From Styela clava (lineage: Eukaryota): a DNA stretch of 64,000 nt. The stretch spans positions 7,502,001 to 7,566,000 of the forward strand of contig NC_135262.1 in the NCBI RefSeq assembly GCF_964204865.1. The letters run 5' to 3'. Below, in pieces: positions 39,001-63,000 of the stretch. The stretch's first letter is position 1, and every line of letters starts with the position of its first letter. A program made the position numbers.

Positions 39001-42000
39001 TATTGTGATTGGATAATTGACTTTTGGCAGTGGTGCAATGTAAGGGAAATCAATTGTGACATAATTATTGCTAATAATATTCATAGTGAAGTGGTATCAT
39101 TAATCATTCAATGTGGAAAATCAGCCATATGGGAGTTCAGGAATAGTGTCAAATATGATGATGTATTCCAAATGCAATGTAACTTGCGAGCTATTTTTAA
39201 ATGCAAACTCCTGGGTGTAATCAGATTAATGTCAGATTTTGATAGGCAAAAAATATTATCTGACGAAATTGTTGATGAAGTACTACAAAAATCGATAATG
39301 AGTTGAAGAAATTGAGATTGTCTTGATTTAGGAGGTTTGACTATATAAATGATTGCATAACATAGACAGATTAAATGAAAATCTAGTAGCATGATAGGTT
39401 TTTGAATTTTCTGTCTAATTTTTTTGAAACCTTCTCTTTTTCCATGCTAATATAAAATAATTAATTATATATGTACATAAAAATGTTATATTTATGACGA
39501 AATATGGACAATCTTCAATACAAACGGATATATGACGAAAAATGGATTATCATCACTGGGTTTGATATGTATTAAAAATTGTTTATCCAACTGTTTTAAT
39601 TTTCCTCAATTACCGTAATTGGAACGCAATACATGCAATTGGTTTCCAACAAACAAAAAAAAAATAAAATTATATAAAACAAAAACTGAAAATTTAATTG
39701 GATTCAAAAACATAATTAAATAATTCCATATTGACTCTGGAATTGAATTTGGCAAAAAAAAAAAAAAAGTTTTTGGCGTTTTGGTGAAAAGCCGAAAGGT
39801 GCGTGTTATCTATAACCAGTCAGTTTCTAATGTCAATACGGTACTTGTTAGCACTGTTTATTGACAGCGTTTTCATTCCACCACCGTTCATACTGTCAGT
39901 GTCAGACAGTAATGGCAGAATGGTGACTGGTGACAATCACGAGTTTTACCCGTGAAAGTGGATTTTCGCTCGCGTGTATTTTCGGGGAGCGCTAGCGTGC
40001 AATTGTCATGAAATCCAATCTGGCCTGTCGGTAGTTATCAAGTTGTATTAAACGACACGCCAAACGTCCGCATGCAGAGATACCAAGACCGCGTGAAAAC
40101 CTAGATTCTTAGCGTGCAACTGGGAGAATGGCTCTATTTGAGAAAAGCCTTAATAAACAAATATAAAATTATTTGAACGGAACAGTGCAACTGCGTGACT
40201 TGACGCAAACCACGGTGACGATGCGTATTTTATATAGGTCAAACGTCAAATAATTGACACAAACAAAAAGAAAGGAACAGTTTCGTACAGGTATAAATTC
40301 TTTCGTTTTAAGACTGATCTATCTAGTTGGGATAGGATTTACATATTTATATCATTGATAATCGTCATGTTTTGCTGAAAAGCGGAAAGGTGCGTGTTGT
40401 CTATAACCAGTCACTTTGTAATATTGAAACCTGTTAGCACTGTTTGTTGACAGCTGTTACATTCCGCCACCCTTCATCTGTTCATACTGTCAAATATAAC
40501 TGTAATGGTGACTGGCTGACTGGTGAACAATCACGAGTTTTCTCTGTGAAAGTGGATTTTTGCTCGCGTATATTTTCAGGGAACGCTAGCATGCTCGGCG
40601 TGCAATTGCCATGTGATCCAATCTGACCTGTCGGTAGGTACCCTATCAAGTTGAATTGAATATTTTTTTTAAAATTCATGTCTTTCATGCGGGTGATGTA
40701 ACAGGTTTAAATCATTTCTTTTTATAATAATCTGTTCTTCCAGCATTGTCAACAAAAATATTTACAATGTTTAACCCACTGAACTTATTATCTGCCGAAT
40801 CACTTATCTTAATTTGCACACTTTTCTTGCTTGTGAGATATCTTCTTCAACGCAAATGGAGCATTCTCTCATCCTGGAATATTCCGCACGACCCTCCATC
40901 TGTTAGAAATTTTGGTCACGCAAAGATCATAGTATCAGAAAAAGTTTTTGAATACGAGTTAGAATGCAAGAAAAAATTTGGTCCCATATGGGGGTATTAC
41001 GTCATGACCGCTCCGAGAATTGTCATCCATGATCCAGAGATTCTGAAAGTAATATATATCAAAGAATTTTCAAAATTTCCAAATCGAGTGAATAAATTCA
41101 GACTCGTTCATGGAGAAGAATTAGCAAATGGTTTGTTGTTTACGCTTGATGATCAATGGAAGCGCATCAGAACGACTATGACGCCTACTTTTTCCACAGC
41201 AAAATTGAGGCAAATGGTTGGAATAGTGAAACGGTGTGGTGACGATACTATTGATGTATTTCGTCGCAAAATAAATTCAACAGATGGAATTTTTGTGGCA
41301 AGAAGTGTTTTTGGGGGACTTTCGATGGACGTTGTTTGTGCGGCTGCATTTAGTACTGACGTAAATTCGCAAGACGAAACCAAGATACAGCCTCGTATAA
41401 CAGCCAATGCAAATAAGTTTTTCAGGACTGGATTTTTTCAAGCTTCATTTCTGATTGCTGCAATATTTCCGTTTTTAGAGGGTTTGGTATCAAAACATGC
41501 AAGCCAGAGAAGTCATATTGTGTATTTTCGTGACTTGTGTCATGATTTAATGGAACAAAGACGTAAAGAAAAAGGGGATAGAGTCGATTTAATGCAATTA
41601 ATGTCAGATGCGGAAGTTCCAGAATCAGAATTGAAAGATGATGCTAAAAAGGGAATGTCAGAATTGGAGATAATCGGAAATTCTATCACAATGCTTTTTG
41701 CTGGATATGAAACAACAAGTACAGCTATGTCATTTTTGGCATACAACTTAGCCCAGTATCCCGAAACCCAGAAGCAACTTCAGACAGAAATTGATAAAAT
41801 GTTCGAAGAATGTGTTGAGTTGGATTATGATAGTGTAAATCAGCTGAAATTTCTTGATATGTGCTTGAATGAGAGTTTACGTTTGTATTGCCCCATTCCA
41901 CGGAACTCAAGAATCGCCAAGGAAGAAGTCACCATTGGTGGGCTCACCATTCCGAAAGGATCACTTGTAGCCATTCCGATTTATGCCTTGTGTCATGATC

Positions 42001-60000: not shown

Positions 60001-63000
60001 GTTTTAGACATGAAAAATTGAAAAAGTTGCAGTTTATTTCAAAATTTGCTTTTAAATTTGCTTTGCCACCGATCCTAATAACCAGTATAATTGATCAAAG
60101 CTTTCTACATCTTTTCACGACCCACTGAGATTCCTCTTGCAACCCACCAGTGGGTCGCGACCCATAGTTTGGGAACCGCTGTTTTATATTATTATATTTG
60201 AAAATAGTAAACATTTGAAAGATAACGGAATATACTAATTTCATTTTGCACTGATGGCTCACATTTCAATGATAAATGAAATGCTGTTATCGAATAATTT
60301 TCCAATTGAAGAATATTTTGCATATCAGCATTTAACCCATATGTTAATCAAAACCCTTTTTCTGTTTTATTTTGGCCAATTCTGATGCCAGGTTCTTTAA
60401 CAGAACCAATGCAGTTTTGCTATTTACTATCAGTTCTGGCATTGTGTTGTAGTGTCTTCAATTATCTTTCAACTTATCCTTATTCAAATTGAAACGATCT
60501 GCCCTAATCAATATAATAAGATATCATGACATAACTTGTGTTATTGAGCTGATCAGATTCATGCTTTTGAAATTTTTGTTAAAATTCTTAGTAAGCTCTT
60601 AACTTGCGAACATTAATTTGTTTAATCAAGTGGCAAATGTCAGAATATTCAACTTGAACCATGGTAATACTCAAAACTAACTAAACTAACTTTTTTCTTG
60701 ACAAAGTGACTTCGGGCTGGAGGATTGGCGTTTTGTCCCAGTTTCAGTAAGAATGCTGAATGAAAGCAAAAAAATTACTTCAACTGAATATTGCATTATG
60801 ATTGGAACTATTATGTACCGAGTCATGTTGGAGTTTCTCAACCATTGTGGTATATTTTACAGATATTGATACGCTCATTAACTACAGTATAGTATTCGAT
60901 AGCAAACAACAATTAGTTTTTGTCCGTAACTGCTCATTATCTGCAAGAGAATCGCGATCACTAAAAAATCAGTAGTAAAGTTGAGATTGTAAGTATAAGT
61001 TGAGCAAGGTTGTTAGTAGTCAGTATCCAACATGAATGAAATTGAAGCTCAAAATGAGAATCCGGAATGGGAAAAAGCAAGGAAAGCACTCGAAAACCTC
61101 AATCAAGACAAGAGTGGTAGCAATAACAGTAAGGTAAGTTATGAATTGAGGAATACATTACTTGAATCTGGTTTTCCAGTTCAATATTATTGTATTTTCT
61201 TTAGAATGCAGTAAACTAATAATCGAATCATTTTGTTTTTTCAGTATGGCAAAGGAACACCTAGGAATGGACCAGATAAGTTTTTTCAAGGTAACAACAA
61301 CATGAGGAATATGGGATATCATCCTTCAGGTTCATGGGGTTCGCCATTTGGATATGGAGCCATGGGAGGGTATAGTCCAATGCAAAGAGGACCCTACCCA
61401 CCTATGGGATACATGAACCAATTTGGATCGATGGGTCCAGGAATGCGTAGAGGATCTCCAATGCAAGGAAATAGATTTCGTATGGGAATGAATAATATGT
61501 CTCGAGTAAGTATGCAGTATTTCAAATGAAATGATTGGTGTTACAAATTGTTTTGAATGTTGACTATAACAAAATTCTTTATTTAGATGCCATCAAACCC
61601 TTATGGAAATTTATATACGGGATTTGGATCATCACCCAATGGCCGGAGGATTGATGATAGTCCAAACAAAAATGTCTCTAGTAGAGATCATAGAAATGAC
61701 GACAATGAACCGCCTCTGCCTCCTGATTCATCTCAGGGCCCTCCTCCACCGCCACCAGGTTCTGAAGGGAAACCATCTTTCCCTAAACCAAGATTGCCCA
61801 ATAATTCCTATCGATTTAGGCATGACAAAGGTCCAGGTAGGTCATTATTAATAGCGTTATGTAATTGGTTATGTGGGTTTCATGTATTACAACTTTAGAA
61901 TATGATTTATTATGTTTTAATAAGGACCTATTCGATTTAATCTTGGATCAACAAAATCAGAGTCAGAAAAATCAAACCCAAGTAAAGAGAAGATGAGTGA
62001 AGGGAGATCATCTCGTAGTCCACCCAAGATAGATGATCATCAGATGAAAAATGATGAATCCAAAAATGAAACGAAACAACCTGATGGTGCAAATTCTTTT
62101 CAAATGGGGAATAAGTCTTGGTCTCCAGAATTAATGTTAGTAGTTTCTATTTGTTATATGCCGTAACAGTTATCAATTATTATGTGTTAACGTTTTCAAG
62201 CCTATCAACTTTCATGGTCACATCATCACATGCCCCTTTTGTTCGGTATGGTTGAATGAATTTTCTTTATGTACTTTGTGGCATAACTTGTCGTTAAATT
62301 TCCCAAATTACTTGATTATTTCTGCTAAGTAAAATTCAAACTTGCTCAAATTTGTTCCTGTCTAACTTCCTACACCATAATTATAATATTATATCATTTT
62401 ACGAAATCTTATCTTTTATCTCACAGTTAAGTGCAATCTTCTTCACACTTACAAGGTGTTAGATTGTTATCACTTTTATCTTGGCACTTCACAATTGCTT
62501 CATTGGTACAGTTACAGAGCTTTTATCTGAATGTTAATAAGAAACAGTTCACTGACAAATATGTATTCTTGCAGGGAATATATTCAACGTTCATTTCAAG
62601 CGTGCACCTCTGAAAGTGATAAAGATAGAACAGAAGCATATTTGAAAAGTCTTTTAAATGAAAGAATGAAGAGTGGGGTGGCACATCAAATTGATTGGAA
62701 TGTTGAACCTCTGCCTATGTAAGATTAAAATGAAGTTTTTGTTGTTGTTTTGTAGTAGGATGAGATCTTAGTTACAGAAATCTTCTCATCCAAATTAACC
62801 CAGGATAGAAAATTTGTCATTATGTAATTTTATTTAGGCTCACTTATATGTATCAAGAAAATTTATTGAAATCATGAAATTGAGATAAATGATCCTTAAT
62901 TACCGATATGTGTAGACTGATGAGTATCAATAGCCTACTTATATTTTTAGGCTCAGACTATGACTGGGATTAAGTTTACAACTGTTTTGAGATTCTTGCT

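What the first reader, a model, noticed from the sequence alone, without database searches (positions are those of the whole stretch)
40400..60900. CYP3-like array may be promoter-less coding cassettes fed by one shared first exon (or an operon)
Seen: each intronless CYP ORF is closely preceded by a polypyrimidine-CAG acceptor (AG ending 40743, 46327, 49182, 52102, and 55886 or 55999), as is LENG8 (60862). Only the region before copy 1 is clearly CpG-rich and promoter-like, and it ends in a donor, TCG|GTAGGT (40634). By eye, the spacers between CYPs are AT-rich and CpG-poor. Inference: one non-coding exon could splice to alternative whole-enzyme last exons (the mirror image of UGT1A/protocadherin variable first exons), possibly as part of the LENG8 transcription unit. 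Alternatively, the acceptors are SL trans-splice sites of a polycistronic unit. Caveat: acceptor-like strings are common in AT-rich DNA.
Basis: partly seen in the sequence, partly recalled or inferred. Interest (0 to 1): 0.65.

Follow-up and report, generated by a model that had tools for sequence, protein, structure and literature searches.

The report
Tandem P450 genes in sea squirt
Five back-to-back, intron-free cytochrome P450 (detoxification enzyme) genes of the sea squirt Styela clava most likely work as ordinary separate genes, not as cassettes fed by one shared starting exon.

Summary
The window is Styela clava, an ascidian tunicate: CYP copy 1 is 99% identical to an NCBI S. clava protein. 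All 7 listed AG positions are exact. The GTAGGT donor string is at 40634. CpG observed/expected is 1.11 before copy 1 and 0.50 in the spacers.

- NCBI isoform X1 of copy 5 starts with six residues encoded by a private mini-exon (55123-55139, donor at 55140). It joins the acceptor at 55999 across an 860-nt intron, and a TATAAG sits 30 nt before a likely start site.
- Ciona operons have no intercistronic DNA; here the spacers are 1.3-4.1 kb.
- Ciona promoters are not CpG islands.
- The "promoter-like" stretch is a duplicated ~590-nt unit next to a LINE insertion.
- Acceptor-like strings near the ATGs barely exceed chance (P 0.02-0.04); donor strings are near my own rough expectation (not from a tool).

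Best reading: five independent single-coding-exon genes made by tandem duplication. Each probably has a short private leader, either cis-spliced or SL trans-spliced near the ATG.

Still open: the spacers are intron-like on the + strand (T-rich, CpG-poor), so through-transcription is not excluded. No transcript data were available.

The parts
32822..39768 (+). Neighbour, not part of the array: a non-LTR retrotransposon (LINE), the window's virus-like stretch. ORF1-like 34099-35379 (426 aa, GDSL/SGNH esterase-like). ORF2 35506-39306 (1266 aa; endonuclease, reverse transcriptase, zf-RVT). A15 tail at 39754-39768. Described only.
   Evidence: Pfam hits. Both ORFs are open as listed, with 0 stops or frameshifts inside them. 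A 10-nt direct repeat, GTTTTTGGCG, at 32812-32821 and 39769-39778 flanks the element (read). Two nested copies of a dispersed ~340-nt repeat lie in its 5' part (count only).
39778..40660 (+). The 'CpG-rich promoter-like' stretch. It is a tandem [rep-X-rep] structure: rep_a 39778-40052, X2 40053-40368, rep_b 40369-40660. A further X copy (X1) lies at 32115-32816, on the other side of the LINE.
   Evidence: rep_a and rep_b are 78% identical over 299 columns. X2 matches 32115-32175, 32610-32646 and 32657-32816. CpG o/e: rep_a 1.11, X2 1.52, rep_b 0.74, X1 1.38.
40634..40743 (+). Candidate 110-nt intron of copy 1, from donor string GTAGGT (40634-40639) to acceptor CAG ending at 40743. Its use is not shown.
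   Evidence: The homologous place in rep_a reads GTAGTT.
40767..42287 (+). CYP3-like copy 1, single coding exon, 506 aa.
   Evidence: PF00067 E 1.8e-94. 99% identical to P0001, 'cytochrome P450 3A31-like [Styela clava]', same length.
46350..47885 (+). CYP3-like copy 2, 511 aa. Acceptor-like CAG ends at 46327, 22 nt before the ATG.
   Evidence: P0003 is 100% identical over 511 aa.
49188..50708 (+). CYP3-like copy 3, 506 aa. Acceptor-like CAG ends at 49182, 5 nt before the ATG.
   Evidence: 69% identical to copy 2. P0005 reads as this copy with a few substitutions (by eye).
50820..50915 (+). Short P450 pseudogene fragment, about residues 122-151 of the copy 4/5 type, just after copy 3.
   Evidence: tblastn with P0004: 53% over 30 aa, E 1.7e-6. 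Repeat families D7 and D17.
52205..53728 (+). CYP3-like copy 4, 507 aa from the first ATG. Acceptor-like CAG ends at 52102, 102 nt upstream, and that leader holds upstream ATGs. The place homologous to the 55999 acceptor reads CCG.
   Evidence: 92.8% identical to P0004.
55080..55139 (+). Private 5' end of copy 5. TATAAG at 55080-55085, a CA at 55109-55110 (30 nt downstream), and an ATG mini-exon at 55123-55139 that encodes MKFLN plus two bases. Donor GTAGGT at 55140.
   Evidence: P0004, NCBI isoform X1, begins with exactly these residues. The TATA and CA positions were read from the output; the -32 to -29 TATA rule is from PMC4691747 (passage).
55140..55999 (+).
56000..57539 (+). CYP3-like copy 5, main exon. 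The ATG of the short form is at 56010 (509 aa).
52071..60379 (+). The youngest tandem duplication. Unit A (about 52071-55851: copy 4 plus its downstream spacer) and unit B (about 55852-60379: copy 5 plus its spacer).
   Evidence: Start-to-start spacing is 3805 nt. The 5' part of the CDS is 95% identical and the spacers 75-85%.
61032..63276 (+). LENG8 homologue, first six coding exons: 61032-61133, 61245-61505, 61587-61836, 61925-62135, 62575-62717 and 63163-63276. The gene runs off the window. The acceptor-like CAG at 60862 lies 169 nt before the ATG.
   Evidence: Exon 62576-62716 is 100% identical to P0121, 'leukocyte receptor cluster member 8 homolog [Styela clava]'. Residues 1-368 of P0121 map to 61032-63298 in 4 pieces. 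Exon bounds were read.

Best explanation
This is a tandem array of five independently transcribed CYP3-like P450 genes of Styela clava, each with a single coding exon. Serial tandem duplication built it: copy 1 is the oldest branch, then the 2/3 pair, and 4/5 is the youngest. The array lies between a LINE insertion and LENG8.

Each gene most likely starts at its own promoter a few hundred bases upstream, in the preceding spacer. The short untranslated or mini-exon leader is then removed or joined at an acceptor close to the ATG. That happens either by cis-splicing from a private first exon (shown for copy 5) or by SL trans-splicing of an outron (inferred from what is usual in ascidians). If the donor at 40634 is used at all, it belongs to copy 1's own 110-nt intron.

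Shown: gene identity and integrity, the duplication structure, and the private mini-exon, intron and acceptor of copy 5 in an NCBI model.
Inferred: private promoters for copies 1-4, and SL trans-splicing.
For: 1. Species and genes. Copy 1 is 99% identical to an NCBI S. clava protein. Copies 2 and 5 match database proteins at 100% and 99%. All 5 of 5 ORFs are full-length p450 matches.

2. Private exon of copy 5. P0004, NCBI isoform X1 of copy 5, begins MKFLNF-RIK-M. MKFLN plus TT is encoded at 55123-55139 and followed by GTAGGT. The exon starting at 56000, right after the AG at 55999, supplies the third base of the F codon and then RIKM (checked exon by exon, not joined). The only copy in the window with all 23 bases (mini-exon plus donor) is 55123-55145. 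The next best matches have 5 and 6 mismatches.

3. Promoter string. TATAAG at 55080-55085 lies 30 nt before a CA at 55109/55110 (read). In Ciona, TATA boxes sit at -32 to -29 and CA is a preferred start (PMC4691747 passages). In the two paralogous spacer copies downstream of copy 5 (about 58.9 and 59.2 kb), the TATAAG and the donor are not kept.

4. Ciona comparison. The transcribed region upstream of the first acceptor has a median length of about 455 bp, and mean outron length is 438 bp. About 60% of trans-splice acceptors lie in the 5' UTR or at the first cis acceptor (PMC11155486 and PMC4691747 passages). The ATG-proximal acceptors and the 110-nt and 860-nt candidate introns here are of a similar order.

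5. Spacing. Stop-to-next-ATG spacers are 4062, 1302, 1496, 2281 and 3492 nt. Ciona operons are directly juxtaposed (PMC1488885 passages).

6. For 4 of 5 copies the stretch from acceptor to ATG is 5-23 nt and free of ATG.
Against: - Only 1 of 5 genes has external support for a private first exon. That support is an automated NCBI model whose underlying reads I could not see.
- A canonical AATAAA or ATTAAA first appears 877, 85, 820, 340 and 450 nt after the five stops. Clean, close 3' ends are therefore not evident for copies 1 and 3.
- The spacers are compositionally intron-like on the + strand. AT skew is -0.094, against -0.155 in LENG8 introns and +0.007 in 13.4-29.5 kb. CpG o/e is 0.50, against 0.36 and 0.77. 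Acceptor-like sites on + versus - number 93:29, against 18:3 and 94:100.
- No CpG-rich gap marks a promoter in any spacer. In Ciona sperm, promoters, intergenic DNA and tissue-specific genes are unmethylated (PMC3827831 passages), so a 20-kb CpG-poor block that includes the spacers is not what plain intergenic DNA would show.
- TATA-like and donor-like strings are common in this AT-rich DNA and prove nothing by themselves.
Confidence: 0.62

Rival explanations
1. Through-transcribed domain, a long-spacer or 'hybrid' operon. A primary transcript starts near 40.3-40.6 kb and runs through the whole array, possibly into LENG8. CYP mRNAs are cut out by SL trans-splicing at the ATG-proximal acceptors plus polyadenylation. 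Private promoters such as that of copy 5 may act in addition.
For: All genes are on the same strand. The spacers have an intron-like + strand bias and CpG depletion comparable to LENG8 introns. The only CpG-rich stretch between 39.5 and 63.5 kb is 39.5-41.5 kb. That resembles the unmethylated zone of about -0.8 to +1 kb around a start site next to a methylated gene body described for Ciona (PMC3827831 passage). Tunicates use one SL for both mono- and polycistronic units (PMC7986045 passage).
Against: Spacers of 1.3-4.1 kb are unlike any described ascidian operon, where intercistronic distance is 0 to under 100 nt (PMC1488885 and PMC7986045 passages). Copy 5 has its own TATA-type first exon. 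The strand bias is also expected from long 3' UTRs, read-through past poly(A) sites, and private outrons or introns. No SL-like sequence and no transcript data were available. The Ciona 16-mer gave 8 matches at up to 3 mismatches against 3.6 expected, and none is at a CYP start.
Confidence: 0.12
2. One non-coding exon ending at 40633 splices alternatively to each whole-enzyme exon, as alternative last exons. This would mirror UGT1A and protocadherin variable first exons.
For: A GTAGGT donor string lies at 40634. Acceptor-like CAGs precede every ORF. No CpG-rich stretch lies in the spacers.
Against: The nearest acceptor (40743) is copy 1's own, 110 nt away. The acceptor of copy 5 is paired with a donor at 55140 in the NCBI model. 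The donor lies in a duplicated segment, and the other copy lacks it. Donor strings occur about as often as my own base-composition estimate predicts: 12 in 13.3 kb. CpG content does not mark promoters in Ciona (PMC4691747 passages).
Confidence: 0.04
3. The acceptor-like strings before copies 1-4 are chance products of T-rich DNA. These genes would be plain unspliced single-exon genes with start sites just upstream of the ATG, and only copy 5 has a spliced isoform.
For: Such strings occur 7.6 times per kb on this strand. Enrichment next to the ATGs is only P 0.02-0.04 with thresholds chosen afterwards. The tracts hold only 8-10 of 14 pyrimidines. Between the close paralogues 4 and 5, the 55999 acceptor is not conserved.
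Against: In 3 of 4 of these copies the string lies within 23 nt of the ATG, with an AG-free zone of 22-41 nt upstream. The 52102/55886 site is kept in both young paralogues. About half of Ciona genes are trans-spliced at such sites (PMC4691747 passage).
Confidence: 0.2

Closest known systems
Monocistronic SL trans-spliced, or first-intron cis-spliced, genes of Ciona (PMC4691747, PMC11155486, PMC1488885; passages read)
   Same: An acceptor sits in the 5' UTR close to the ATG. The upstream transcribed stretch is short, from hundreds of bases down to about 100 nt. Promoters are TATA or TATA-less without CpG islands. The same acceptor can be used in cis or in trans.
   Different: SL addition was not shown here. 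The S. clava SL sequence is unknown to me, and the Ciona SL has no meaningful match in the window.
Ciona SL-resolved operons (PMC1488885, PMC2760879, PMC7986045)
   Same: Neighbouring genes on the same strand, with an acceptor ahead of each downstream ORF.
   Different: Ciona operons have no or under 100 nt of intercistronic DNA and are mostly dicistronic. Here there are five genes, 1.3-4.1 kb apart, and at least one internal first exon.
Variable-exon clusters: UGT1A and protocadherin (variable first exons); Drosophila lola and mod(mdg4) (common 5' exons with alternative 3' exons). All recalled, no call.
   Same: A row of similar coding units on one strand, each with a splice site facing a possible common exon.
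   Different: In those loci the variable units are not complete genes with their own start and stop codons plus a private first exon. Here each unit is a complete ORF, and copy 5 has its own 5' exon.
Vertebrate CYP3A tandem clusters (recalled) and the Ciona 'CYP3-like member 1-3' genes (names seen)
   Same: Clan-3 P450 paralogues multiplied by tandem duplication. The best non-tunicate hits are vertebrate CYP3A at 35-41% identity.
   Different: The coding region here is intron-less, whereas vertebrate CYP3A genes have many exons (recalled).
Botryllus fuhc sec/tm gene pair (PMC3691228, passages read)
   Same: A styelid ascidian with adjacent same-strand genes where operon and read-through were both weighed.
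   Different: That pair is separated by a 227-bp gap and linking transcripts were actually observed. Here nothing is known about linking transcripts.

Membership tests
Cytochrome P450, CYP3-like (clan 3) | Full-length match to the P450 profile | tested here: met
   PF00067 in 5 of 5 ORFs, profile positions about 1-456 of 462, E 1e-90 to 1e-97.
Cytochrome P450, CYP3-like (clan 3) | Heme-binding Cys motif (FxxGxRxCxG; motif recalled) | tested here: met
   Read in all 5 translations, in the form ...PFG(C/S)GPRNCIG(M/K)RF....
Cytochrome P450, CYP3-like (clan 3) | Closest named relatives are CYP3 and CYP3-like proteins. The nomenclature rule of at least 40% identity for a family is recalled. | tested here: inconclusive
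   The named hits's list are CYP3A or CYP3-like. Tunicate hits are 40-56% identical and vertebrate CYP3A 35-41%. That straddles the 40% line, hence 'CYP3-like'.
Ascidian SL-resolved operon | Genes on the same strand | tested here: met
   All five CYPs and LENG8 are on the + strand.
Ascidian SL-resolved operon | No or very short (under 100 nt) intercistronic DNA | tested here: not met
   Spacers are 1302-4062 nt. Criterion from PMC1488885 and PMC7986045 passages.
Ascidian SL-resolved operon | Downstream cistrons carry the SL, and a polycistronic precursor exists | not testable with these tools
   No transcript data were available. The Ciona SL 16-mer has no match of fewer than 2 mismatches in the window.
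   Copy 5 has a private mini-exon at 55123-55139 with TATAAG 30 nt before a CA. Copies 1-4 were not testable.
   Donor and acceptor strings are present but at or near chance density (for acceptors; my estimate for donors). No junction reads were available.
Non-LTR retrotransposon (the neighbouring virus-like stretch) | APE-type endonuclease plus reverse transcriptase in one ORF; poly(A) tail; target-site duplication | tested here: met
   PF03372, PF00078 and PF13966 in the 1266-aa ORF. A15 tail and a 10-nt flanking direct repeat (read).

The most novel reading that the evidence does not exclude
The 21-kb block from the 3' half of copy 1 to LENG8 is CpG-poor and T-rich on the sense strand. It could be one germline-transcribed, body-methylated unit that starts at the CpG-rich duplicated segment at 39.8-40.7 kb. 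The P450 mRNAs would then be released from it by SL trans-splicing at the ATG-proximal acceptors. That would be a long-spacer operon, or genes nested in a giant 5' intron of LENG8, and would be unlike the spacer-less operons known in ascidians. Private promoters such as that of copy 5 would be later additions.
Probability: 0.08. Interest if true: 0.7.

Novelty: already known. Interest (0 to 1): 0.25.

Why it matters
The evidence points instead to an ordinary tandem array of separately driven genes that NCBI's pipeline already annotates. The value here is mainly in clearing the finding.

Two cautions carry over to other ascidian windows. CpG richness is not a promoter mark in these genomes. A pyrimidine-CAG just before an ATG is expected, because first acceptors, whether cis-spliced or SL trans-spliced, sit there.

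The intron-like composition of the spacers is a small open point. Existing RNA-seq and methylation data for this species could settle it.

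Tried and rejected
- SL relic or SL RNA gene. The Ciona 16-nt SL quoted in PMC7986045 gave 8 matches at up to 3 mismatches against 3.6 expected (5 of 100 shuffles reached 8). None is beside a CYP start. Rejected.
- The 39.8-40.7 kb repeat as an RNA gene. Rfam at gathering thresholds gave 0 matches and ARAGORN gave 0 tRNAs in the whole window.
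- Donor strings as evidence for first exons. They number 12 in 13.3 kb, close to my own rough expectation. Dropped.
- Poly(A) signals as evidence for separate 3' ends. This was inconclusive. The first AATAAA or ATTAAA is 85-877 nt after the stops. AATAAA is rarer on the + strand (11) than on the - strand (35) of the spacers.
- Pfam on the six LENG8 exons one by one gave 0 families. Identity came from the protein search instead.
- More P450 relics in the spacers. Only one fragment turned up, and the 4-kb spacer 1-2 holds no convincing ORF.
- Isoform and accession look-up by the listing of cluster members could not be made because the database was switched off.
- Searches for S. clava with trans-splicing and for tunicate CYP3 intron structure found nothing specific. 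The S. clava genome paper (PMC7540406, passages read) mentions only a P450 2U1 family expansion. Its supplementary tables are closed and may list this cluster.

Full report
**What the window is.** The window has no N. The first P450 ORF is 99% identical over its full 506 residues to 'cytochrome P450 3A31-like [Styela clava]' (P0001; 98.6% by tblastn). Copy 2 is 100% identical to P0003. Copy 5 matches P0004, 'cytochrome P450 3A29-like isoform X1 [Styela clava]'. The downstream gene matches 'leukocyte receptor cluster member 8 homolog [Styela clava]' (P0121) at 100% over one exon. Residues 1-368 of P0121 map to 61032-63298. So this is a chromosome piece of the ascidian Styela clava (Styelidae). 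It is not human, and nothing in it was treated as human.

**The observation.**
- Five uninterrupted P450 ORFs lie on the + strand. All 5 of 5 are full-length PF00067 matches, and the heme-binding Cys motif can be read in each.
- The tracts are moderate, with 8-10 pyrimidines of 14 at -18..-5.
- Distances to the ATG are 23, 22 and 5 nt for copies 1-3 and 102 nt for copy 4. For copy 5 they are 123 nt (AG 55886) and 10 nt (AG 55999). For LENG8 the distance is 169 nt.
- GTAGGT is at 40634.
- CpG observed/expected is 1.11 in 39772-40743, 0.50 in the pooled spacers (GC 0.30) and 0.64 in the pooled CDS.

**Is it more than chance?** Only weakly.
- A YAG with at least 9 of 14 pyrimidines occurs 94 times on the + strand of the 12.4 kb of spacers.
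- A random spacer position has such a site within 25 nt upstream with probability 0.18, or 0.26 at 8 of 14.
- The CYP starts have one in 3 of 5 (4 of 5 at the lower threshold). This gives P = 0.04 and 0.02, with thresholds chosen after seeing the data.
- Donor-like hexamers number 12 in 13.3 kb. That is about what base composition predicts by my own estimate.

**The decisive piece: copy 5 has a private first exon.** P0004 is nine residues longer than the genomic ORF. Its first residues are not collinear with the DNA.
- MKFLN plus two bases is encoded at 55123-55139, followed by GTAGGT.
- I checked this exon by exon.
- The only exact copy of the mini-exon plus donor in the window is this one.
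- The intron is 860 nt.
- TATAAG at 55080-55085 lies 30 nt before a CA at 55109/55110. In Ciona, TATA boxes sit at -32 to -29 and CA is a preferred start dinucleotide (PMC4691747, passages).
- The spacer after copy 5 is a duplicate of the spacer before it. Its two homologous stretches keep neither the TATAAG nor the donor.

So the acceptor at 55999 is real, but its partner is local, not 40633.

**The 'promoter-like' stretch.** The region 39778-40660 is a duplicated structure: rep_a, X2 and rep_b. The two rep copies are 78% identical. Another X copy lies at 32115-32816.

Between X1 and rep_a sits a ~6.9-kb non-LTR retrotransposon (32822-39768). It ends in A15 and is flanked by a 10-nt direct repeat (read). 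Before that insertion, the region upstream of copy 1 was therefore a tandem [X-rep] x 2.

The GTAGGT at 40634 is in rep_b, and rep_a has GTAGTT there. The donor is 110 nt from copy 1's own acceptor. If used, its most economical role is as the 5' splice site of copy 1's own small intron.

**Why CpG richness is a poor promoter mark here.** In Ciona, promoters do not differ in CpG content and CpG islands seem absent (PMC4691747 passages).

[quoted passage not shown] Here the stop-to-ATG gaps are 4062, 1302, 1496, 2281 and 3492 nt.

SL trans-splicing of single genes is another matter.
- About half of Ciona genes are trans-spliced.
- About 60% of acceptors lie in the 5' UTR, often at the first cis acceptor.
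- The upstream transcribed stretch has a median of about 455 bp (PMC11155486 and PMC4691747 passages).
- Trans-splicing has been described in Botryllus, in the same family (PMC3691228 passage).

A CAG a few bases before the ATG is therefore what an ordinary ascidian gene looks like. The Ciona SL itself has no meaningful match in the window. I have no S. clava SL sequence.

**History of the array.**
- Copy 1 is 53-56% identical to the others. Copies 2 and 3 are 69% identical, and copies 4 and 5 are 93%.
- Copies 4 and 5 belong to a tandem duplication with a 3805-nt period that carries the downstream spacer with it.
- A 30-residue P450 fragment sits just after copy 3.

**What speaks for through-transcription.**

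| Region | AT skew | CpG o/e | Acceptor-like sites, + : - |
|---|---|---|---|
| CYP spacers | -0.094 | 0.50 | 93 : 29 |
| LENG8 introns | -0.155 | 0.36 | 18 : 3 |
| 13.4-29.5 kb | +0.007 | 0.77 | 94 : 100 |

(All.)

- The spacers are thus intron-like on the + strand, intermediate between the LENG8 introns and the 13.4-29.5 kb region.
- From about 41.5 to 63.5 kb, no 500-nt window exceeds a CpG o/e of 0.84.
- In Ciona sperm, methylation covers the bodies of broadly expressed genes. It spares promoters, intergenic DNA and tissue-specific genes (PMC3827831 passages).

I rate this as real but not discriminating. Long 3' UTRs, read-through past poly(A) sites and private outrons or introns would together cover most of each 1.3-4 kb spacer and give the same bias. 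A TATA-type promoter that is silent in germ cells need not leave a CpG-rich gap. Canonical poly(A) signals are also not neatly placed: the first AATAAA or ATTAAA comes 85-877 nt after the stops.

**The virus-like stretch (description only).** This is a LINE at 32822-39768 on the + strand.
- The ORF1-like frame (34099-35379, 426 aa) has a GDSL/SGNH esterase-like match.
- ORF2 (35506-39306, 1266 aa) has endonuclease, reverse transcriptase and zf-RVT domains.
- Both ORFs are open as they stand: I counted 0 stops and 0 frameshifts inside them.
- Two nested copies of a dispersed repeat lie in its 5' part.
- I did not pursue whether ORF1 is complete at its 5' end.

**Verdict.** This is an ordinary tandem array of separately annotated CYP3-like genes with single coding exons. 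In a tunicate these features are the normal signature of first acceptors close to the ATG. One gene demonstrably has its own first exon. The shared-exon model (about 0.04) and the long-spacer operon (about 0.12) are not excluded for copies 1-4, because no transcript data were available.

Noticed in passing
window 51144-51197, 54317-54370, 58318-58371: A ~50-nt block is conserved in three successive spacers at 80-81% to the first copy, and its last 17 nt are invariant. In the copy 4/5 duplicates it lies inside a 222-nt stretch that is 95% identical, while the neighbouring spacer is about 76%. It could be a regulatory element or a gene-conversion tract.
   Followed up: partly
window 59263-59311 versus 61101-61149: A spacer segment resembles the 3' end of LENG8 exon 1 plus its donor (73% over 49 nt). 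Only 2 of 200 dinucleotide shuffles reached that score. The mini-exon of copy 5 (55124-55172) aligns to the same family more weakly, at 61%. The private first exon of copy 5 may therefore descend from a partial duplicate of the LENG8 5' end. The evidence is marginal.
   Followed up: partly
window 30133-30462 (plus fragments on the - strand at about 17053-17272 and 22678-22764): A GC-rich dispersed repeat of about 340 nt with a short (GGATA)-like run at one end. Two further copies, 99% identical to each other, lie inside the LINE's 5' part. ARAGORN and Rfam do not recognise it.
   Followed up: partly
window 32176-32609: The X1 copy is interrupted by about 430 nt carrying a 35-nt inverted repeat (32337-32371 and 32458-32492, 94%). 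Part of it matches 25844-25942 on the other strand. It looks like a small MITE-like insertion.
   Followed up: no
window 7396-8094 (+): An uninterrupted 232-aa ORF with a full thymidylate kinase domain (PF02223, E 3.9e-47).
   Followed up: no
window 12838-13317 (+): An ORF with part of a kinesin motor domain (PF00225, profile positions 218-292). It is probably one exon of a kinesin gene.
   Followed up: no
window 3000-6000: A strongly skewed stretch (GC skew about -0.35, AT skew down to -0.30). It has long overlapping ORFs on both strands and only scattered low-complexity Pfam matches with no significant stretches. It is probably a low-complexity or repetitive coding region.
   Followed up: no
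window 57987-58129: A 72-nt tandem repeat, 2.0 copies, 94% matches. It lies in the spacer after copy 5, with a single copy at the homologous place after copy 4 (54055-54126).
   Followed up: no
window 63690-64000: A CpG-rich stretch (o/e 1.26 in 63501-64000) with long G and C runs, inside what should be a LENG8 intron. Its nature is unknown.
   Followed up: no
window 52102-52204 versus 55886-56009: The two youngest paralogues differ in their leaders. Copy 4 has upstream ATGs and lacks the 55999-type acceptor (CCG instead of CAG). Copy 5 has both acceptors.
   Followed up: partly
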